Shown: positions 15,358 to 21,852, counted from the stretch's first letter. The stretch is DNA of 64,000 nucleotides from Alphaproteobacteria bacterium (GCA_013289145.1 JABDAM010000003.1:27301-91300); one strand, 5' to 3'. Notes: a model not told the origin generated them from the sequence alone. Numbers and translations: made by a program.

Positions 15358-15494
15358 GAATGGAGGATATCAGGTTTTAGGGGGGAAACTCAATTATCCA
15401 GGGTGCAACTATTTAAATTGCTTGCAAAACGGACAATGGATGTTTTACGGTTGCCCATAACCACCTTATTTAAACCTAATTTAGGAGAATTTTG

Positions 15495-16637
15495 ATGTTG
15501 GAGAATAGAGAACTTAAGCGCGCCGCGGACCAATTTGCCGAAGTATCAGGGCAGCCAAAAGATAACTTGAATTTTATACATACGACTGAAGGCAGATATC
15601 TTCTCGTTTTTCTGCCGAATGATGGCGAGCCCCGTATGCTGGGAGCTGTTCATTGGCACAATTTAGGCTGTTCAATTAATGGCCATAGGATTGATGATGA
15701 ATATTTTGAAGGCGATCAAGGTTTGAATCGAACCTCGCGCGGAAAAGCATTGAAAGTGTTTTTTGAATTATGCGCCCAAAAAATAACAGATCAAACAGTA
15801 TACGTTCCCTCTCTGCTCGAAAATCCTTATGAATGGGATAATGTTTACCTGGATGCTTTTAATGTGGTGAAGAGCTCCCGCCTTGCAAATGCAATTGATC
15901 GCTTCGCTGAAATATCAGGTTTAGCAAAGGAAAACATCCACTTTATCCATAAATTTTACGGTGGCGGCTACTACGATCTTCATGTTGCACAGCCCGACGG
16001 ATCCTTTGTTAAGCTGGGTGAGGTTTATCAATCTGTGCTGTGTTGTTCCATGAATGGGGATAATGAATTTGACCGTTATCTGGCCGATGGAGGGGTTGGT
16101 AATAACGCCCGCGGTCGTGCGTTGGATGCATTCTTTAAATTATGTGCTGCAAAAATAACAGATCCGGGTATCAAAGTTAATAGTTTGCTTGGAAATTCTG
16201 AAATGTGGTCTTCAGAGTATCTGGAGGCTGCTATGCCTACGCAGGCTGAAGCGCGGGAAGCGTGGGAACAGTTGCAATCTGGTGCGCCACGGCTGGTCAA
16301 TAACGATGGCTCTTTGGTTGGAGGCGATCCGCAGAACTTTTTAGGAAGATCCATTGAGGATAACAAAATGGTTATTTACAAATGGGTGCAGGCAGTGGGC
16401 GGAACGCTAACGGCGATCGGCGCGAATAAATTTGAAGCGGGCTTATGGGGAGCAAAAACAAAGGCGGACGAAATTAATTTCAACCGTGCAGGCGCTATGC
16501 AGCGCAGGCTGGGTTTTGTGACGCCCTCTGCCTTGCGCGCGGAAATGCATGTTCCTGACGCCGACCAGTTGAATAAAAAAGCTTTCCGCCAGGCACAATA
16601 CCGGGCCGCCGCTGCAATCTGCGCTTACCCTGGATAA
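15495..16637 (+). CDS. Hypothetical protein with an internal tandem domain duplication
   Basis: The ATG at 15495 lies 7 nt after AGGAG. Two colinear repeats of roughly 115 aa are present (FAEVSGQPKDNLNFIH...RGKALKVFFELCAQKITD and FAEISGLAKENIHFIH...RGRALDAFFKLCAAKITD). The gene is AT-richer than its flanks. Confidence 0.6.
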   Translation: MLENRELKRAADQFAEVSGQPKDNLNFIHTTEGRYLLVFLPNDGEPRMLGAVHWHNLGCSINGHRIDDEYFEGDQGLNRTSRGKALKVFFELCAQKITDQTVYVPSLLENPYEWDNVYLDAFNVVKSSRLANAIDRFAEISGLAKENIHFIHKFYGGGYYDLHVAQPDGSFVKLGEVYQSVLCCSMNGDNEFDRYLADGGVGNNARGRALDAFFKLCAAKITDPGIKVNSLLGNSEMWSSEYLEAAMPTQAEAREAWEQLQSGAPRLVNNDGSLVGGDPQNFLGRSIEDNKMVIYKWVQAVGGTLTAIGANKFEAGLWGAKTKADEINFNRAGAMQRRLGFVTPSALRAEMHVPDADQLNKKAFRQAQYRAAAAICAYPG

Positions 16638-16650
16638 GTTAAGGTTTGCT

Positions 16651-16875
16651 TTACCGCTTACTGCCAGCGGCAATCGCCATGATTTCTTCGCTGTTCACCA
16701 GGTTGAAACCTTCGCCGCCGTTTAGGGCAGGTTCATAGTGCGTGGGGGATTTTTTGCGTTTGACCAGGCGCGGGCCGGCGCCTTTGAATTTTACGGGCCA
16801 CCCGCCGTCATCCAGCAACTCTTTCCGGGTCTCGGCGGCGGCTTCCAGCAGTTTTTTAGCGCGTTTTGGACTCAT
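16651..16875 (-). CDS. Small hypothetical protein (74 aa, Lys-rich)
   Basis: Open frame on the same strand as the nrd/TA genes. I recognise no motif. Confidence 0.35.
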   Translation of the reverse strand: MSPKRAKKLLEAAAETRKELLDDGGWPVKFKGAGPRLVKRKKSPTHYEPALNGGEGFNLVNSEEIMAIAAGSKR

Positions 16876-16975
16876 GGTGACTCAGTTCTCTACTCTTTTA
16901 TTCTACCTGGGGAATGTGACGGTTCTGTGACGCACGAGTAAAGGTTTAAGAAAAAAGCCGCTTAAATGGGCTATT

Positions 16976-17344
16976 TTATAGCTTGCTCGGCGGGTAGTCC
17001 TGCATCAGCTCCCGGATTCTGCCGCGCAAAGGCAAAAGAACGTCAATAGCGAAATTCCACGCCATCTGCACATTGATATGAAAATATTCATGAATAAATT
17101 CATTGCGCGTATCCACCAAATCAAGCCATGGAATATCAGAAGCAATTTGATCGATTTGATGGTTGCGGAGCAAATGCCGGCTAGCTTCGCCGATGACTTC
17201 GATGGTTTTAATAAAGGCCAGCCGACGTTCGATGCTATTTTCAATTTCTTGCCGTCCGTCGCGGGTCAGCATTTCCAGCCAGCTTAATGCTGCGTCGACG
17301 TCAAACAACCAGTTGAATATTTGCCGCTGCGATGATTTTTTCAT
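16976..17344 (-). CDS. hepT: HepT-type HEPN toxin (DUF86)
   Basis: 122 aa with the Rx4HxY motif (RNEFIHEY) and IEVIGEA. It overlaps the upstream MNT gene by 4 nt. Confidence 0.8.
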   Translation of the reverse strand: MKKSSQRQIFNWLFDVDAALSWLEMLTRDGRQEIENSIERRLAFIKTIEVIGEASRHLLRNHQIDQIASDIPWLDLVDTRNEFIHEYFHINVQMAWNFAIDVLLPLRGRIRELMQDYPPSKL

Positions 17345-17661
17345 ATGGCGGTGATGTCGTCCGCGATTTCATCCTGAATGCGGATCAGGCTGGGCGGGCT
17401 GGCCAGATCGACTTGGCGGCCGAGAAAAGTTTGTAATGCGCGTTTAAGGCGCACCAAATCCAGATAGGAACGGTCGGGGGCAAAGTCGGCAATCATATCG
17501 ATATCGCTGTCTGGGGTTTCTTCGCCACGCGCGACAGAGCCGAAGACGCGCAGATTGCTGGCGCCATATTGTGCCGCAAGTTCCGTAATTTCATCTCGGC
17601 GGGTTTTGATTTGCTCAAGCAGCATGAGCTTAATTATATCAAAGCTTGCCGCAAAAGCCAA
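17341..17661 (-). CDS. mntA: MNT-type nucleotidyltransferase antitoxin
   Basis: GS-x10-DxD motif FGSVARGEETPDSDIDM. The start is ambiguous: a TTG at 17661 lies 10 nt after the nrdB stop, and an ATG lies at 17625. Confidence 0.8.
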   Translation of the reverse strand: MAFAASFDIIKLMLLEQIKTRRDEITELAAQYGASNLRVFGSVARGEETPDSDIDMIADFAPDRSYLDLVRLKRALQTFLGRQVDLASPPSLIRIQDEIADDITAI

Positions 17662-17671
17662 GCAATCTGAC

Positions 17672-18679
17672 TTACGCCGCCTTGCCCGCGCCCGTCGCGT
17701 TAAACGCGGTGGTTTCGAACGCCTCTTCCCACGTCCCGGTCGTTGCCGCGCGGGAATATTCCGTTGCGCGGTTTTCGAAGAAGTTGGTATGTTCGATCGC
17801 GTTCAGCATCACATCCATCCACGGCAGCGGGTTGTCGCCGACGCCGTATTTCGGTTGCAGGCCGAGTTGCATCAGGCGGCGGTCGCCGATGTAGCGGATG
17901 TAGTTTTTGACTTCCTGCGCCGTCAGGCCTTCGATGCCGCCCATTTGAAAGGCGAGGTCGATAAAGGCGTCTTCGTGATGGATGATGGTGTCGCAGGCAT
18001 CATAGATTTCTTGGTGCATTTTCGGCGTCCAGACTTCCGGGTTTTCGGAAATGAAGGTGCGGAGCAGGCGGATGACCGACAGGGTGTGCAAGGTTTCATC
18101 GCGCACGGACCAGGAAACGATTTGCCCCATGCCTTTCATTTTATTGAAACGCGGGAAGTTCATGAGGATCGCAAATGACGCGAACAATTGCAGACCTTCG
18201 GTGAAGGCGCCGAACACCGCCATCGTGCGCACGATGTCTTCTTTCGATTCCATGTTGAAGCCTTGCATGTAATCGTATTTATCCTTCATCTCTTTATATT
18301 TAAGGAAAGCGGAATATTCGATTTCGGGCATGCCGATGGTGTCGAGCAGGTGAGAGTAGGCCGCGATATGCACCGTTTCGATATTCGAGAAAGCGACGAG
18401 CATCATTTTGACCTCGGTCGGCTCGAACACGCGCGAGTAATGTTTCATGTAACAGTTGTTGACCTCAACATCCGCCTGGGTGAAGAAGCGGAAAATTTGA
18501 GTCAGCAGGTTGCGTTCGCTGTCGGTGATTTTATTTTTCCAATCTTTCACGTCGTCCGCCATGGGGACTTCTTCCGGCAGCCAGTGCAGGCGCTGCTGCG
18601 TCAGCCAGGCTTCGTAGGCCCAGGGGTAGTTGAAGGGTTTATAGACGGGATTGGGGGTGAGTAGGCTGTGGGTGGTCAT
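17672..18679 (-). CDS. nrdB: Ribonucleotide-diphosphate reductase beta subunit (class I R2)
   Basis: 335 aa with a ferritin-like R2 fold and an ExxH...Y segment (IETVHIAAYSH). The start lies 3 nt after the stop of the upstream HEPN gene. Confidence 0.9.
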   Translation of the reverse strand: MTTHSLLTPNPVYKPFNYPWAYEAWLTQQRLHWLPEEVPMADDVKDWKNKITDSERNLLTQIFRFFTQADVEVNNCYMKHYSRVFEPTEVKMMLVAFSNIETVHIAAYSHLLDTIGMPEIEYSAFLKYKEMKDKYDYMQGFNMESKEDIVRTMAVFGAFTEGLQLFASFAILMNFPRFNKMKGMGQIVSWSVRDETLHTLSVIRLLRTFISENPEVWTPKMHQEIYDACDTIIHHEDAFIDLAFQMGGIEGLTAQEVKNYIRYIGDRRLMQLGLQPKYGVGDNPLPWMDVMLNAIEHTNFFENRATEYSRAATTGTWEEAFETTAFNATGAGKAA

Positions 18680-18682
18680 GGT

Positions 18683-19105
18683 TTAATTCCGTTTGTTGAG
18701 TTGTTGAACTTTTTGTTTGAGAAGCTGATAGCCTGCATTTAGCAGGGTTGAATAGTCTTTCTCAATATGTTGGCTAATTTTTTCTAAATCAGGCGGGGAG
18801 TATTCATGTGCTAGCGTATTTCGGTCACTGTGCATTTCAAACCAGCCTTCGCTTTTAGGAAGAAGGCCATTTGTCATGCCAATTTCCAAAGTCTCTTTGG
18901 GGAAATTGCTTTTAGGTTCGTCCAGGTAAGCAATAATAAGCCTAGTCAACTGCCGTGTCATTTCATAGGCAAGACGAAAGCGGCTGGCTAATGCTTCGCG
19001 GTATAATTTGTTTTCGCGTTCTGCTTCAATCGCATTCAAATCCTGAATGGCGGCTGTCAGGTCTGTGAAAACTTCATTAATCAGTTCAAGGCGTTCAGCG
19101 GACAT
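18683..19105 (-). CDS. HEPN nucleotidyltransferase-substrate-binding protein (HI0074-like), putative toxin
   Basis: Rx4HxY motif RNTLAHEY. The ATG at 19105 is preceded by GGGAGAG; the ORF track's TTG start is at 19129. It overlaps the MNT gene upstream. Confidence 0.75.
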   Translation of the reverse strand: MSAERLELINEVFTDLTAAIQDLNAIEAERENKLYREALASRFRLAYEMTRQLTRLIIAYLDEPKSNFPKETLEIGMTNGLLPKSEGWFEMHSDRNTLAHEYSPPDLEKISQHIEKDYSTLLNAGYQLLKQKVQQLNKRN

Positions 19106-19427
19106 AAAGCGCTCTCCCTTCTTTTTCAATTATTTTTCTTAAAGCTGGGCGCGCGTGCGCCAGATTAACGCAGTCGATTTTCGCCAGCTTATCTGACGCA
19201 TTCACAATATCCGTCAGTTTCCGCCATATGACGTGATCTGCGGTTGAATCCATTTCAAAGGCCAAATCCACATCCGAAAATTTATGAATTTTTCCAGTTG
19301 CATAGGAGCCAAATAAAACAATTTTCATAATTTGCGGAAAAACCAGTGCTAGATTACGCACAATCTCCCGCAGCCAGGGCTCAAGCCCTTCGTCGTTAAT
19401 CGTAATGGTGCGGGTTTCGGTGAGCAT
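19095..19427 (-). CDS. Nucleotidyltransferase (HI0073/MNT-like), putative antitoxin
   Basis: 110 aa with the motif LFGSYATGKIHKFSDVDLAFE. Confidence 0.75.
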   Translation of the reverse strand: MLTETRTITINDEGLEPWLREIVRNLALVFPQIMKIVLFGSYATGKIHKFSDVDLAFEMDSTADHVIWRKLTDIVNASDKLAKIDCVNLAHARPALRKIIEKEGRALYVR

Positions 19428-19467
19428 GGTTAATTTCTAGGTTAAGCCTATATAGTCTTTCTCTATT

Positions 19468-19568
19468 TGTCACCCCGGCCTTGTGCCGGGGTCTGTCTCG
19501 ACGTTAGGGCGATGCTTCAGAATGTGTGATTGCGGCGCCGCAGACCCCGGCACAAGGCCGGGGTGACA
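19468..19568. repeat. Nested palindromic element of the GTCAYCCCGG family (copy 2)
   Basis: tgtcaccccggccttgtgccggggtctg (19468..19495) is a perfect inverted repeat of cagaccccggcacaaggccggggtgaca (19541..19568). Each arm is itself a hairpin (ccccggc...gccgggg). Confidence 0.85.
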
Positions 19569-19574
19569 GACCTT

Positions 19575-21572
19575 TTATTGACACGCCAGACACTCCTCAT
19601 AATCATTCGCGCTATTCCCGTTCGCCGCAACCGGGGACATATCCAGCGGCAAACGCGGTTCGCGTTCGAGATCGAGTTCGGGCACCTTGCCATCCGCTTC
19701 GCCGGGGATTTGGTCGACCATGGCTTTTTTCAGTTGGGTGGAGGCGGCGGAGGATTCGGCGCGCTGGACGGACAGGGATCGGCAGTAATACAAAGACTTC
19801 ACGCCTTTTTTCCAGGCCAGCATGTGGATCTGGTGCAGATCTTTTTTATGCACGTTGCCGGGGAGGAAAATGTTCAGCGATTGCGCCTGGCAAATGTAAG
19901 GCGTGCGGTCGCCGGCGTGTTCGATCAACCAACGCTGGTCGAGTTCAAAGGCGGTTTTGAAAACAGCTTTTTCATCGGCGGTCAGGAAGTCGAGGTGTTG
20001 GACGGAGCCGCCGGTTACCGTGATGCTGCTCCAAATCTCCGGCGTGTTCTGGCCTTTTTCGGTGAGGAGTTTATCCAGATACGTGTTACGCACTTCAAAT
20101 GAACCGGACAGGGTTTTGTGCGTGAAGACATTCGCCGCGATGGGCTCGATGCCGGGTGATGTGCCGCCGGTGATGATGGAGATGGACGCCGTCGGCGCGA
20201 TTGCCATTTTATTTGAAAAGCGTTCCATGATGCCGTAGTCCGCCGCATCCGGGCAGGCGCCGCGTTCGTGCGCGAGTTTCACGCTGGCCTCATCCGCCTG
20301 GCGTTTGATTTGTTTGAACATGCGCTGGTTCCAGACCTTCGCCATCACGGATTCCATCGGGATGTTCATCGCCTGCAAAAACGAATGGAAACCCATGACG
20401 CCGAGGCCGATCGAACGTTCGCGCATCGCGGAATATTTCGCGCGCGCCATGCTGTCGGGCGCTTTTTTAATGAAGTCGGACAGGACGTTGTCGAGGAAGC
20501 GGCAGCAGTCTTCGACAATCGTCGGATGGTTTTGCCATTCCAGGAATTTTTCCAGGTTCAATGACGACAGGCAGCAAACCGCGGTGCGTTGCTGGCCGTA
20601 TTGGTCCGTGCCGGTGGGCAGCGTGATTTCGCAGCAGAGGTTTGACGTTTTCACCGTCAGTCCCGCGAGTTTGTGGTGCTCGGGAATCGCGCGGTTGACG
20701 TGGTCGATGTATAAAATATACGGCTCACCCGTTTCAACGCGGGCGGTGAGGATGCGGATCCACAATGCGCGCGCGGAAACGCGTTCGCGCACGGCGCCGT
20801 CCTTGGGCGATACCAATGCCCATTCCTGATCGTTTTCAACGGCGCGCATGAAGGCGTCGGTGACGACAACGCCGTGGTGCAGGTTGAGGGATTTGCGGTT
20901 CGGATCGCCGCCGGTTGGCCGCCTGATTTCGATGAATTCTTCGATTTCTGGATGCGAAATTGGCAGGTAAACCGCCGCGCTGCCGCGACGTAATGAGCCT
21001 TGTGAAATCGCCAATGTCTGGCTGTCCATGACTTTAATAAACGGAACGATGCCGGAAGTTTTCCCGGTGCCTTTCACGCCTTCGCCGATGCCGCGCAGGT
21101 TGCCCCAGTAGGAACCAATCCCGCCGCCCTTGGCCGCCAGCCAGACGTTTTCGTTCCACAGGCCGACGATGCCGTCCAGGCTGTCGTTTGCTTCGTTCAG
21201 GAAGCATGAAATCGGCAAGCCGCGATCGGTGCCGCCGTTGGATAGAACAGGCGTTGCGGGCATGAACCATAATTTGGAAATGTAATCATACATACGCTGC
21301 GCATGGGCGCTGTCATCCGCGTAATACATCGCGACGCGCGCGAAGATGTCCTGGAACGATTCCTCGCCCGGCAAAATGTAACGGTCGGCGAGCGTCGCGC
21401 GGCCGAAATCGGTGAGCAAATTGTTGCGCTCATGATCCACGCGGACTTTGGTGCCGCGTTCCACCTGTACCATATCGAACATTGCCATTTTCCCCTTTGC
21501 TTCAGGTCGCGGTGGCGGTCTGTCGCCGGCCGTTTCGCGCCCTGAGCCCTTGATTGCTGTTTCGGTCTTCAT
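19575..21572 (-). CDS. nrdA: Ribonucleotide-diphosphate reductase alpha subunit (class I R1)
   Basis: R1 catalytic-core motifs are present (SNLCCEI, PTASIS) together with the C-terminal Cys pair CLAC. The start is set at MKTETAIKG (ATG at 21572, GAGG upstream); the ORF track extends to 21623. Confidence 0.9.
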   Translation of the reverse strand: MKTETAIKGSGRETAGDRPPPRPEAKGKMAMFDMVQVERGTKVRVDHERNNLLTDFGRATLADRYILPGEESFQDIFARVAMYYADDSAHAQRMYDYISKLWFMPATPVLSNGGTDRGLPISCFLNEANDSLDGIVGLWNENVWLAAKGGGIGSYWGNLRGIGEGVKGTGKTSGIVPFIKVMDSQTLAISQGSLRRGSAAVYLPISHPEIEEFIEIRRPTGGDPNRKSLNLHHGVVVTDAFMRAVENDQEWALVSPKDGAVRERVSARALWIRILTARVETGEPYILYIDHVNRAIPEHHKLAGLTVKTSNLCCEITLPTGTDQYGQQRTAVCCLSSLNLEKFLEWQNHPTIVEDCCRFLDNVLSDFIKKAPDSMARAKYSAMRERSIGLGVMGFHSFLQAMNIPMESVMAKVWNQRMFKQIKRQADEASVKLAHERGACPDAADYGIMERFSNKMAIAPTASISIITGGTSPGIEPIAANVFTHKTLSGSFEVRNTYLDKLLTEKGQNTPEIWSSITVTGGSVQHLDFLTADEKAVFKTAFELDQRWLIEHAGDRTPYICQAQSLNIFLPGNVHKKDLHQIHMLAWKKGVKSLYYCRSLSVQRAESSAASTQLKKAMVDQIPGEADGKVPELDLEREPRLPLDMSPVAANGNSANDYEECLACQ

Positions 21573-21852
21573 CGCCGGACCTCGTTGCGAACGGTTCTCA
21601 AGTTGGTGAGTCGCGAACCACAAGATCTGGTGTGCTTGTTCTTTATGGATACCACATGATGCGGAGTCGCCAATAAGAACATATTACTATTTCGTAAGGT
21701 TTCCATGCCCCTGATTCCCCGATTCACGCCAGAGCATGCCTGAAGTTGGCACGGACTGTGCGCGTGAAATGCTTTTTCGCCTAGCCTGAAATATATTTTT
21801 TTTCGTCCTACTAGACAAGGAAAGAATCGGATTTTGTTCTGTTTTTGTTTCT

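What the first reader, a model, noticed from the sequence alone, without database searches (positions are those of the whole stretch)
16976..19427. Two MNT/HEPN toxin-antitoxin modules spliced into the nrdA-nrdB operon
The minus-strand order is nrdA, palindromic element, MNT (HI0073-like), HEPN (HI0074-like, RNTLAHEY), nrdB, MNT (GSx10DxD), HepT (RNEFIHEY). Spacing is extremely tight. The HEPN stop and the nrdB ATG are 3 nt apart (TAA-acc-ATG), and the second MNT's earliest start lies 10 nt after the nrdB stop. No terminator is visible between any of these genes. nrdB translation therefore probably depends on transcription, and possibly translational coupling, through a toxin gene. Both TA pairs look AT-richer than nrdAB, so they are probably acquired. 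Embedding RNase-type toxins in the essential dNTP-supply operon could stabilise the selfish modules. It could also link HEPN RNase activity to RNR expression, for example during phage attack or replication stress. I do not know this as a described arrangement.
Basis: partly seen in the sequence, partly recalled or inferred. Interest (0 to 1): 0.65.

Follow-up and report, generated by a model that had tools for sequence, protein, structure and literature searches.

The report
Toxin-antitoxin genes inside ribonucleotide reductase operon
A small toxin-antitoxin gene pair (an RNase and the enzyme that switches it off) sits between the two genes of the essential DNA-precursor enzyme in this soil bacterium. 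Four related lineages keep a pair there, directly in front of the second gene, whereas a second pair just downstream is a recent, self-contained add-on.

Summary
On the minus strand the order is nrdA, a 101-nt perfect-arm palindrome, MNT1, HEPN1, nrdB, MNT2, HepT2. Both pairs meet the published sequence definition of class I (type VII) HEPN/MNT toxin-antitoxin modules: the right Pfam families plus the GSX10DXD and RX4HXY motifs.

The two pairs have different histories.

**Pair 1 (MNT1-HEPN1)** is not a one-off. The same mnt-hepn-nrdB unit occurs in three other uncultured alphaproteobacterial lineages, 0-17 nt upstream of nrdB. In two of them it lies 21-22 nt after nrdA. Catalytic motifs are invariant, and dN/dS is 0.07-0.09 between the window and its closest carrier. 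Several close relatives have only a 49-51-nt nrdA-nrdB spacer; others hold unrelated small cargo there. Pair 1 shows no convincing promoter or terminator of its own, so it most likely rides on the nrd transcript. In the window, nrdB's Shine-Dalgarno has decayed (GGAG to GGAA) and the HEPN stop lies 3 nt before the nrdB ATG.

**Pair 2 (MNT2-HepT2)** is seen only in the window. It has a strong sigma-70-like promoter and was inserted between the nrdB stop and its old terminator.

The palindrome is also seen only in the window.

No RNA data exist, so co-transcription, translational coupling and toxicity remain inferences.

The parts
21573..21818 (-). nrdA promoter-like site and conserved 5' leader, the only conserved regulatory region of the operon. 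It includes an NrdR-box-like palindrome ACACCAGATCTTGTGG at 21633..21618.
   Evidence: TTGTCT-17-TATATT at 21818..21790. The promoter and long leader blocks are conserved in 9 related lineages. The NrdR-box resemblance rests on my own knowledge of the consensus and was not tested.
19575..21572 (-). nrdA, class I ribonucleotide reductase alpha subunit. No ATP-cone was detected.
   Evidence: NCBIfam NF006577 scores 1005 bits against a cut-off of 620. Pfam finds Ribonuc_red_lgN and lgC only. The start at ATG 21572 is inferred from the N-termini of relatives.
19468..19568 (.). 101-nt palindromic element inside the 147-nt nrdA-MNT1 spacer (19428-19574). It is an insertion seen only in the window.
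   Evidence: 28-nt arms are 100% complementary. The RNA fold is -80.6 kcal/mol, z = -9.5. It is single-copy in the window. It is absent from L086 and L089, whose spacers are 21-22 nt. There is no real Rfam family match.
19095..19427 (-). MNT1, a minimal nucleotidyltransferase and putative MntA-type antitoxin. The GSx10DxD motif is G40 S41...D52 V53 D54. There is no Shine-Dalgarno.
   Evidence: Pfam PF18765 and PF01909. The nearest PDB match is S. oneidensis MntA 5YEP at E = 2.6e-6. Homologues are 93%, 68% and 50% identical in L086, L089 and L098 at the same position.
18683..19105 (-). HEPN1, an HI0074/NTase_sub_bind-type HEPN protein and putative RNase toxin. The RX4HXY motif is R95 N96 T L A H100 E Y102. 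A strong SD (AAGGGAG) lies inside the MNT1 3' end.
   Evidence: PF08780 scores 49.7 bits and PF01934 scores 31.3 bits. R95, N96, H100, E101, Y102, S103, P105 and D106 are invariant in four lineages. dN/dS is 0.065 against L086.
18677..18696 (-). HEPN1-nrdB junction: ...ACGGAATTAAaccATG. It holds a decayed SD (GGAA), then the HEPN1 stop TAA, 3 nt, and the nrdB ATG, all in the same frame.
   Evidence: Sequence. The homologous positions read GGAG in L089, L094 and L098, and AAGG...TAAATG in L086.
17672..18679 (-). nrdB, class I RNR beta subunit.
   Evidence: NCBIfam NF007186 scores 572 bits against a cut-off of 237. Pfam PF00268.
17633..17661 (-). Sigma-70-like promoter of cassette 2 (TTGGCT-17-TGaTATAAT). 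The MNT2 ATG lies 7 nt after the -10 box, so the mRNA is probably leaderless or nearly so. A palindrome GCTCATGCTGCTTGAGC spans the start codon.
   Evidence: One search finds a 10/12 match plus TG. A match this good occurs in 0.05% of 49-nt windows of the 64-kb window and in 0.05% of shuffles.
17341..17625 (-). MNT2, the antitoxin-type nucleotidyltransferase of cassette 2 (GS..DID).
   Evidence: PF01909 scores 40.3 bits. PADLOC PDC-S09 matches at 2e-29 over residues 3-91 of the 94-aa form. The gene caller also chose ATG 17625.
16976..17344 (-). HepT2, a DUF86/HepT-like HEPN RNase toxin of cassette 2 (RNEFIHEY).
   Evidence: PF01934 scores 42 bits against a cut-off of 23.5. It is distantly related (25-29% identity) to plasmid DUF86 genes that lie next to NTase genes.
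16939..16961 (-). Remnant of the ancestral nrdB rho-independent terminator (3' arm plus T-run, GCGGCTTTTTTCTTAAACCTTTA), now downstream of HepT2.
   Evidence: It aligns with L086's ...CGCGGGCGTTTTTTTCTTAAACCTTTA, which there follows nrdB directly.

Best explanation
These are two independent class I (type VII-like) HEPN/MNT toxin-antitoxin modules with different histories.

**Pair 1 (MNT1-HEPN1).** This is an old insertion into the nrdA-nrdB spacer of a small clade of uncultured soil and rhizosphere alphaproteobacteria. It has become a fixed internal part of the nrd transcription unit.
- It lacks a convincing promoter, terminator or antitoxin SD of its own.
- It is transcribed by read-through from the conserved nrdA promoter and leader.
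- It now carries the translation-initiation region of nrdB in, or just after, its 3' end. In the window (and in L086) nrdB translation is therefore probably helped by ribosomes terminating on hepn.
- Inferred from the family, not shown here: MNT1 uses ATP to AMPylate Tyr102 of HEPN1 next to the RX4H RNase site and keeps it silent. If MNT activity or supply fails, free HEPN1 cleaves RNA and stops growth.
- Its position makes loss costly, because only a precise excision keeps nrdB expressed. Because the antitoxin acts catalytically, the pair can tolerate lacking its own autoregulated promoter.

**Pair 2 (MNT2-HepT2).** This is a recent insertion seen only in the window. It has its own sigma-70-type promoter and landed between the nrdB stop codon and its terminator. 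It is a conventional free-standing TA/defence cassette that additionally receives read-through from nrdB.

**The palindrome.** The 101-nt palindrome is a third insertion, also seen only in the window. As an RNA hairpin it probably attenuates or processes the nrdA-to-mnt transcript.
For: **Shown directly.**
- Family and motif membership of both pairs, judged by the definition in PMC7641770.
- Ancestral state: nrdA-49..51 nt-nrdB with a strong SD and no TA in L082, L084, L085 and L096.
- The same mnt-hepn-nrdB unit occurs in L086/87/88/91 (hepn-nrdB gap 0 nt), L089/90/92 (17 nt) and L098 (14 nt). nrdA lies 21-22 nt upstream in the first two groups.
- The window, L086 and L089 form a clade on NrdA+NrdB (NJ bootstrap 0.82).
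- dN/dS for the window against L086 is 0.087 for mnt and 0.065 for hepn, at dS 0.39 and 0.68.
- Catalytic residues are invariant in four lineages.
- There is no sense-strand terminator-like site between nrdA and nrdB in L086 or L089. Promoter-like hits there are not above shuffle expectation and are not positionally conserved.
- The promoter and leader are conserved only upstream of nrdA.
- The SD decayed from GGAG to GGAA, and the stop and start lie 3 nt apart.
- Pair 2 is absent from all relatives, has a promoter-like site with p of about 5e-4, and is followed by the terminator remnant.
- The palindrome is absent from sister lineages and folds at -80.6 kcal/mol.

**Inferred.** Co-transcription, termination-reinitiation coupling, AMPylation, toxicity, and the entrenchment argument.
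Against: - No transcript data exist for any lineage.
- AT-rich hepn contains promoter-like hexamers in every lineage: window 18961..18933 at 10/12, L086 at 9/12, and L089 at 10/12 at a different place. An internal nrdB promoter therefore cannot be excluded.
- A weak 8/12 promoter-like TTGCCT-18-TATGTT overlaps the nrdA stop in L086 and L089 (seen by eye).
- The cassette phylogeny is incongruent with the host genes. HEPN is 92% identical between the window and L086 but only 39% between the window and L089, although NrdA/NrdB are about 95% identical. Simple vertical descent is therefore insufficient.
- In L098 the gene upstream of mnt is not nrdA.
- The NCBIfam HepT/MntA equivalog models score below their cut-offs.
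- The HEPN1 structure model is low-confidence (pLDDT 58).
Confidence: 0.6

Rival explanations
1. **Functional co-option.** The nrdB-linked MNT/HEPN subfamily is no longer a selfish TA. Instead it acts as a regulator of RNR supply. For example, HEPN could cleave the nrd mRNA or other RNAs when the nucleotide pool is wrong, with MNT acting as an ATP-dependent (or dATP-sensitive) switch. That would give an ATP-cone-less RNR a feedback loop.
For: - The mnt-hepn-nrdB linkage is conserved in four lineages under strong purifying selection.
- In L098 the linkage to nrdB persists even though the upstream gene is not nrdA.
- Neither NrdA nor NrdB shows an ATP-cone domain.
- The pair has no promoter of its own and sits under the nrd leader, which carries an NrdR-box-like palindrome.
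- MNT enzymes use ATP (PMC7641770).
Against: - Close relatives with 88-93% identical RNR subunits lack the pair, or carry unrelated orphan genes in the same spacer. RNR function therefore does not need it.
- The cassette keeps a foreign composition (GC3 40-46% against 72-74%).
- HEPN diverges to 34-39% identity among hosts whose NrdB is 88-95% identical. That pattern fits conflict or defence genes rather than housekeeping regulators.
- There is no experimental support of any kind.
Confidence: 0.12
2. **Hot-spot model.** The spacer upstream of nrdB is a recurrent integration or recombination site. Related but distinct MNT/HEPN cassettes were acquired or swapped several times, rather than inherited from a single insertion.
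For: - The same spacer holds at least five states among close relatives: empty, about 163 nt, a 125-aa orphan, a 137-aa membrane ORF, or MNT/HEPN.
- Ten of 61 more distant alphaproteobacterial loci have 1.1-4 kb of unrelated genes between nrdA and nrdB.
- The cassettes in L089 and L098 are far more diverged than their flanks. The cassette tree also disagrees with the NrdAB tree.
Against: - The left junction is alignable between L086 and L089 (AGCATCGGCATATGTTAAACC against AGCATAGACATATGTTACCACC).
- The first 57 nt of mnt are nearly identical in three lineages.
- The carriers form a clade.
- No recombinase, repeats or att-like sites flank the cassette.
- This rival is partly compatible with the best explanation, since alleles could be replaced inside conserved flanks.
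Confidence: 0.2
3. **Independent units.** Each module and nrdB has its own promoter and the tight spacing is incidental. The palindrome terminates or processes nrdA transcripts, promoters inside hepn drive nrdB, and there is no meaningful coupling.
For: - Promoter-like hexamers lie inside hepn in all three lineages.
- A very stable hairpin follows nrdA in the window.
- Pair 2 clearly has its own promoter-like site.
- Many alphaproteobacteria tolerate unrelated genes between nrdA and nrdB.
Against: - The internal promoter-like sites are not positionally conserved and are not more frequent than in shuffles.
- The hairpin has no U-tract and is absent from sister lineages.
- In L086 the hepn stop and the nrdB start abut.
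- The conserved regulatory leader exists only upstream of nrdA.
Confidence: 0.15

Closest known systems
Type VII HepT/MntA (class I HEPN/MNT) toxin-antitoxin systems, e.g. Shewanella oneidensis SO_3166/SO_3165 (PMC7641770)
   Same: The MNT gene lies upstream and overlaps the HEPN gene. MNT carries GSX10DXD and HEPN carries RX4HXY. The Pfam pairs are PF01909 with PF01934 or PF08780. MNT1's best PDB match is SoMntA 5YEP.
   Different: - Pair 1 has no promoter of its own and sits inside a housekeeping operon, directly in front of an essential gene.
- MNT1 is 110 aa, against 139 aa for SoMntA, and has a conserved 13-19-aa N-terminal extension.
- The NCBIfam equivalog scores are below cut-off.
- Toxicity and AMPylation were not tested.
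HI0073/HI0074 nucleotidyltransferase / substrate-binding pair of Haemophilus influenzae (PDB 1NO5; TIGR01987)
   Same: HEPN1's best Pfam family is NTase_sub_bind, the HI0074 family. MNT1 matches HI0073 (1NO5) at E = 4.5e-4.
   Different: TIGR01987 scores 35.8 bits, below its 55.8 cut-off. Sequence identity to plasmid-borne HI0074 proteins is only about 27%.
relA-mazE-mazF-mazG operon of E. coli (own knowledge: Aizenman et al. 1996; Gross et al. 2006)
   Same: A chromosomal TA pair embedded in an operon with nucleotide and stress-metabolism genes and transcribed together with them.
   Different: mazEF is a type II system with its own autoregulated promoter, and it lies downstream of relA, not between two subunits of one essential enzyme. 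No translational coupling to an essential gene is known there.
Mobile elements that target RNR genes: homing endonucleases, introns and inteins, e.g. mobE between nrdA and nrdB of T4-like phages (abstract of PMC3045599; the mobE detail is my own knowledge)
   Same: Selfish cargo lodged in or between nrdA and nrdB and kept there because the flanking genes are indispensable.
   Different: The cargo here is a TA pair, not a nuclease-driven homing element. The host is a bacterial chromosome. No homing mechanism or target-site repeats were seen.

Membership tests
Class I HEPN/MNT (type VII HepT/MntA) TA module, as defined in PMC7641770 | Neighbouring genes, with MNT upstream of HEPN | tested here: met
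   The MNT1/HEPN1 genes overlap by 11 nt. The MNT2/HepT2 genes share an ATGA overlap.
Class I HEPN/MNT (type VII HepT/MntA) TA module, as defined in PMC7641770 | Toxin belongs to PF01934 or PF08780 and carries RX4HXY | tested here: met
   HEPN1: PF08780 at 49.7 bits (cut-off 31.8), motif RNTLAHEY. HepT2: PF01934 at 42 bits (cut-off 23.5), motif RNEFIHEY. The motif is invariant in four lineages.
Class I HEPN/MNT (type VII HepT/MntA) TA module, as defined in PMC7641770 | Antitoxin belongs to PF01909 and carries GSX10DXD | tested here: met
   MNT1 scores 38.7 bits and MNT2 40.3 bits against a cut-off of 21. The motifs are GSYATGKIHKFSDVD and GSVARGEETPDSDID.
Class I HEPN/MNT (type VII HepT/MntA) TA module, as defined in PMC7641770 | NCBIfam equivalog models NF047751 (HepT) and NF047752 (MntA) reached at the curated cut-off | tested here: not met
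   MNT1 scores 51.3 and MNT2 40.1 against a cut-off of 60. HEPN1 scores 26.7 against 60. HepT2 has no hit. These are divergent members, so the family-level assignment rests on Pfam plus motifs.
Class I HEPN/MNT (type VII HepT/MntA) TA module, as defined in PMC7641770 | HEPN is toxic (RNase) and is neutralised by MNT-catalysed AMPylation of the motif tyrosine | not testable with these tools
   This needs expression, toxicity and mass-spectrometry assays.
Canonical free-standing TA operon | Own promoter immediately upstream of the antitoxin gene | tested here: inconclusive
   - Pair 2 has a 10/12 + TG promoter-like site in its 46-nt upstream spacer.
- Pair 1 has no site reaching 9/12 upstream of mnt in the window, L086 or L089.
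- L086 and L089 do have an 8/12 match overlapping the nrdA stop (seen by eye).
HI0074 family (TIGR01987) | Score at or above the curated cut-off | tested here: not met
   HEPN1 scores 35.8 bits against a cut-off of 55.8.
Class I ribonucleotide reductase nrdAB operon | NrdA and NrdB equivalog models reached, with the genes adjacent and co-oriented | tested here: met
   NF006577 scores 1005 against 620 and NF007186 scores 572 against 237. The ancestral spacing of 49-51 nt is seen in relatives.
Repeated palindromic elements (REP/BIME or MITE), considered for the 101-nt palindrome | Multiple copies in the genome and/or target-site duplications | tested here: not met
   Only this one copy occurs in 64 kb. 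No flanking direct repeat was seen. There is only a loose resemblance to a hairpin downstream of nrdB in L089. The rest of the genome was not available.

The most novel reading that the evidence does not exclude
A distinct MNT/HEPN subfamily, marked by the N-terminal motif M-x-TETRTITI-D-x-GLE-x-WL, may have been co-opted as a built-in governor of nrdB and RNR expression in bacteria whose class I RNR lacks an ATP-cone. MNT would read the adenine-nucleotide state, and HEPN would act on the operon's own mRNA or on global RNA. dNTP supply and growth arrest would then be wired together, for example during phage infection or replication stress.
Probability: 0.1. Interest if true: 0.8.

Novelty: new variant of a known kind. 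Interest (0 to 1): 0.5.

Why it matters

Here a pair has lost, or never had, autonomous expression signals. It sits inside an essential two-subunit enzyme operon and has taken over the translation-start region of the downstream essential gene. It has been kept under purifying selection in several lineages while its sequence turns over quickly.

That makes it a clean natural case of 'entrenchment by position' for a selfish or defence module. It also offers a testable model for how enzymatic (type VII) antitoxins allow TA modules to be expressed from a host promoter.

If the link to RNR turned out to be functional, it would connect RNase toxins to dNTP supply.

The practical annotation point is that the two pairs should not be treated as one system.

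Tried and rejected
- **RNA evidence.** Three searches for sequencing runs (two of them restricted to RNA) found only DNA runs and no RNA run for the window, L086 or L089. Co-transcription therefore could not be tested.
- **HEPN1 homologue search by shared words.** This returned only HEPN1 itself. The MNT1 search was what uncovered the sister loci.
- **GTDB species representatives.** Among the 80 loci kept from the nrdB scan (best NrdB match 83%), none has MNT/HEPN by tblastn. They do show that nrdA-nrdB gaps of 1-4 kb carrying unrelated genes are common.
- **Metagenome scan with the MNT alignment.** This added only one new contig.
- **TA remnants in TA-less relatives.** None was found (tblastn). 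Loss by decay is therefore not supported for those lineages.
- **Rfam.** The only hits are spurious microRNA-hairpin matches on the palindrome.
- **attC/integron or MITE reading of the palindrome.** I rejected this for lack of core sites, extra copies or target duplications (and by eye).
- **Internal promoter at 18961..18933 as the nrdB promoter.** It is weakened in L086 and absent at that position in L089, so I treat it as chance but do not exclude it.
- **AlphaFold model of HEPN1.** The single-sequence model has pLDDT 57.8 and is too poor for a fold search, so none was run.
- **P0003 and P0012 (long NrdB-like proteins).** I suspected HEPN-NrdB fusions. They are internal duplications or misassemblies.
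- **Literature.** No paper describes HEPN/MNT in or next to nrd genes.


Full report
**1. What is in the sequence**

- nrdA 19575-21572. The likely start is ATG 21572, judged from the N-termini of relatives.
- A 147-nt spacer.
- MNT1 19095-19427.
- HEPN1 18683-19105. Its ATG has a strong AAGGGAG Shine-Dalgarno and overlaps MNT1 by 11 nt.
- nrdB 17672-18679.
- MNT2 17341-17625.
- HepT2 16976-17344, with an ATGA overlap onto MNT2.

Pfam places MNT1 and MNT2 in NTP_transf_2/Polbeta, HEPN1 in NTase_sub_bind (49.7 bits) and HepT-like (31.3), and HepT2 in HepT-like (42 bits). All are above the gathering scores. NrdA and NrdB pass the NCBIfam equivalog cut-offs by a wide margin. The NCBIfam HepT/MntA equivalogs and TIGR01987 are hit only below cut-off.

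Both MNTs carry GSX10DXD and both HEPNs carry RX4HXY. Yao et al. define class I HEPN/MNT (type VII) pairs by exactly these motifs in neighbouring PF01909 and PF01934/PF08780 genes. They showed that the tyrosine is the AMPylation site (PMC7641770).

The nearest solved structures are S. oneidensis MntA (5YEP, E = 2.6e-6) for MNT1, and TTHA0048 and a 'HEPN toxin' (8XDJ) for HEPN1.

The HEPN1 stop and the nrdB start read TAA-acc-ATG, in the same frame. GC3 is 72/74% for nrdA/nrdB, 46/40% for MNT1/HEPN1 and 59/54% for MNT2/HepT2.

**2. Two corrections to the anatomy**

First, the 46-nt spacer between the nrdB stop and the MNT2 ATG contains TTGGCT-17-TATAAT with an extended -10 TG.
- A site this good is found in 0.05% of 49-nt windows of the 64-kb sequence and in 0.05% of shuffles of the spacer.
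- The ATG lies 7 nt after the -10 box, so the mRNA is probably leaderless or nearly so.
- A palindrome, GCTCATGCTGCTTGAGC, spans the start codon.
- The PADLOC PDC-S09 profile aligns from residue 3 of the 94-aa form, and the public gene call also uses ATG 17625. The TTG 10 nt after nrdB is therefore unlikely to be the start.

Second, the 'palindromic element' has 28-nt perfect arms (19468-19495 and 19541-19568). As RNA it folds at -80.6 kcal/mol, z = -9.5. It has no U-tract, is single-copy in the window and matches no real Rfam family.

**3. Relatives without the modules**

The organism is an uncultured alphaproteobacterium. The best GTDB NrdB match is 83% identical. The window itself is held by one soil-metagenome DNA run.

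A search of the large protein collection gave NrdB relatives at 86-92% identity, and their contigs were fetched.
- L082, L084, L085 and L096 share the surrounding synteny. They have nrdA-49..51 nt-nrdB with a strong SD (AGGAG) and no TA.
- L093 has a spacer of about 163 nt.
- L083 has a 125-aa orphan ORF in the spacer.
- L094 has a 137-aa membrane ORF plus a small ORF in the spacer.
- None of these carries remnants of MNT/HEPN.

Among the 80 more distant alphaproteobacterial loci kept from the genome scan, 61 have nrdA upstream of nrdB, with a median gap of 213 nt. Ten of them have 1.1-4 kb of unrelated genes in between.

The nrdA-nrdB spacer therefore accepts cargo repeatedly, and both pairs in the window are acquisitions.

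**4. Pair 1 is conserved elsewhere**

The MNT1 search returned two clusters, P0122 (93% identical) and P0123 (67%). Their contigs show the same arrangement.

| Lineage | Assemblies | nrdA-mnt gap | hepn-nrdB gap |
|---|---|---|---|
| Window | 1 | 147 nt (with palindrome) | 3 nt |
| L086/L087/L088/L091 | 4 independent | 21 nt | 0 nt (TAAATG) |
| L089/L090/L092 | 2 | 22 nt | 17 nt (with SD GGAG) |
| L098 (1.2-kb contig) | 1 | 5 nt, but the upstream gene is not nrdA | 14 nt (with SD GGAG) |

A full HMMER search of 1.84 billion representatives with the MNT alignment found only a handful of close relatives. One of them, P0124, lies on the L098 contig. There mnt-hepn again sits just upstream of nrdB (87-89% identical to the clade), while the gene 5 nt upstream of mnt is a lysine-rich protein, not nrdA.

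The conserved unit is therefore mnt-hepn-nrdB.

In the HEPN alignment, R95, N96, H100, E101, Y102, S103, P105 and D106 are invariant. In the MNT alignment, G40, S41, S51, D52 and D54 are invariant.

Between the window and L086:

| Gene | dN/dS | dS |
|---|---|---|
| mnt | 0.087 | 0.39 |
| hepn | 0.065 | 0.68 |
| nrdA | 0.052 | 0.87 |
| nrdB | 0.046 | 1.16 |

The pair is a functional gene pair that has been retained over substantial divergence, not a fresh or decaying insertion.

On concatenated NrdA+NrdB, the three nrdA-linked carriers form a clade (NJ bootstrap 0.82) inside the group of TA-less relatives.

**5. Cassette history is not simple**

HEPN is 92% identical between the window and L086, but only 39% between either of them and L089, and 34-38% to L098. 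MNT is 93%, 64-68% and 50-57% identical respectively. Yet the flanking NrdA/NrdB are 92-96% identical among the three carriers.

The first 19 codons of mnt (MLTETRTITINDEGLEPWL) are identical at the protein level and nearly identical at the DNA level in three lineages. They are recognisable in L098. This stretch lies outside the Pfam NTase domain.

Two explanations remain open, and I could not decide between them.
- The cassette evolves very fast outside a constrained N-terminus.
- Alleles have been exchanged by recombination within conserved flanks.

Both patterns are typical of conflict or defence loci rather than housekeeping genes.

**6. Expression signals**

A promoter-like site (TTGTCT-17-TATATT) and a leader of about 250 nt are strongly conserved upstream of nrdA in nine lineages. 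The leader includes an NrdR-box-like palindrome.

Nothing comparable exists upstream of nrdB in the TA-less relatives, which have only a 50-nt spacer. nrdAB is therefore ancestrally one transcription unit.

In L086 and L089 there is no sense-strand terminator-like site between nrdA and nrdB. Promoter-like hits are not more frequent than in shuffles and are not positionally conserved. L086 has a clear rho-independent terminator right after nrdB.

mnt lacks any SD in all lineages, whereas hepn has a strong one.

The sequence just upstream of the nrdB ATG is homologous across lineages:
- L089: CAACAACGGAGAAAAATATG
- L094: ...CTAAGGAGAAAAATATG
- Window: CAACAAACGGAATTAAACCATG

In the window the SD has decayed to GGAA, and the hepn reading frame now runs through it to a TAA 3 nt before the ATG. 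In L086 the stop and start abut.

My inference is that pair 1 is transcribed from the nrd promoter, and that in the window and L086 nrdB initiation is assisted by ribosomes terminating on hepn. A catalytic antitoxin makes such promoter-less embedding plausible, because neutralisation does not depend on a stoichiometric excess of a labile antitoxin. That last step is my reasoning from PMC7641770, not a result.

**7. Pair 2 and the palindrome are seen only in the window**

The sequence after HepT2, GCGGCTTTTTTCTTAAACCTTTA..., aligns with the 3' arm and T-run of the L086 nrdB terminator. It also aligns with the conserved promoter region of the next gene, orf74.

Cassette 2 was therefore inserted between the nrdB stop and its terminator. 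It brought its own promoter and now receives read-through from nrdB.

It is only 25-29% identical to plasmid-borne DUF86 genes.

The palindrome, with about 25 nt of flank, is an insertion relative to the 21-22-nt nrdA-mnt spacers of L086 and L089. Its effect on the transcript (attenuation, RNase III processing or stabilisation of nrdA mRNA) is unknown.

**8. Comparison with what is known, and verdict**

The proteins are divergent members of the class I HEPN/MNT (type VII) family. They meet every sequence-level defining feature but not the NCBIfam equivalog cut-offs. Activity is untested.

What is unusual is the context of pair 1.
- It is a promoter-less TA pair.
- It is fixed between the two subunit genes of an essential enzyme.
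- It is conserved in four lineages.
- It overlaps the translation-start region of the downstream essential gene.

Full-text searches found no description of HEPN/MNT in or beside nrd genes. Two precedents are related. RNR genes are known targets of homing endonucleases, introns and inteins (abstract of PMC3045599). TA pairs embedded in host operons also exist, such as relA-mazEF-mazG (own knowledge).

I therefore rate this as a new variant of a known kind, of moderate interest.

The most novel reading not excluded is a functional link between this MNT/HEPN subfamily and RNR control in an ATP-cone-less RNR. I give it about 10%.

Noticed in passing
L098:1-1238: In a fourth, more divergent lineage, mnt-hepn sits 14 nt upstream of nrdB. 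The gene ending 5 nt upstream of mnt is a lysine-rich protein, not nrdA. The linkage is therefore to nrdB rather than to the nrdA-nrdB pair as such.
   Followed up: partly
window 21573-21818 (minus strand): The nrdA promoter-like site and a leader of about 250 nt are strongly conserved in nine lineages. The leader includes an NrdR-box-like palindrome ACACCAGATCTTGTGG (21633..21618). The likely nrdA start is ATG 21572, not the TTG at 21623 or the ATG at 21488.
   Followed up: partly
window 19371-19427 (first 19 codons of MNT1): The N-terminal peptide MLTETRTITINDEGLEPWL is invariant in three lineages and nearly so in a fourth, while the rest of MNT drops to 50-68% identity. It lies outside the Pfam NTase domain. 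The relatives P0125 and P0126 have whole extra domains N-terminal to it.
   Followed up: partly
window 15492-16637 (plus strand): An AT-rich (41-43% GC) 381-aa orphan ORF made of two similar halves, with no Pfam, NCBIfam or PADLOC hit. It lies in the variable region downstream of nrdB, where relatives carry other orphan genes of 276-305 aa or an MscS channel.
   Followed up: no
L083:6597-6974; L094:2407-3066; L093:2427-2589: The same nrdA-nrdB spacer holds different cargo in close relatives: a 125-aa orphan ORF, an AT-rich insert of about 660 nt with a 137-aa membrane ORF, and a non-coding spacer of about 163 nt. None resembles MNT/HEPN.
   Followed up: partly
L086:6960-7000 and L089:6960-7000: A weak (8/12) promoter-like TTGCCT-18-TATGTT overlaps the nrdA stop codon and ends 5-6 nt before the SD-less mnt ATG. 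This hints at a possible leaderless mnt transcript. It is absent in the window and in L098. I saw it by eye, and it is below the scan threshold.
   Followed up: no
window 16651-16875 (minus strand): A small conserved neighbour gene (orf74, MSPKRAKKLLE...) has its own conserved promoter-like region (GTCACA...TAGAAT). Homologous regions follow nrdB in L086 and L083. It has no family hit.
   Followed up: no
L081:1-140 (Logan contig of the window's own sample): The public Logan assembly of the same sample breaks exactly at the first arm of the palindrome. The inverted repeat therefore disrupts short-read assembly, and similar elements may be under-represented in assemblies.
   Followed up: no
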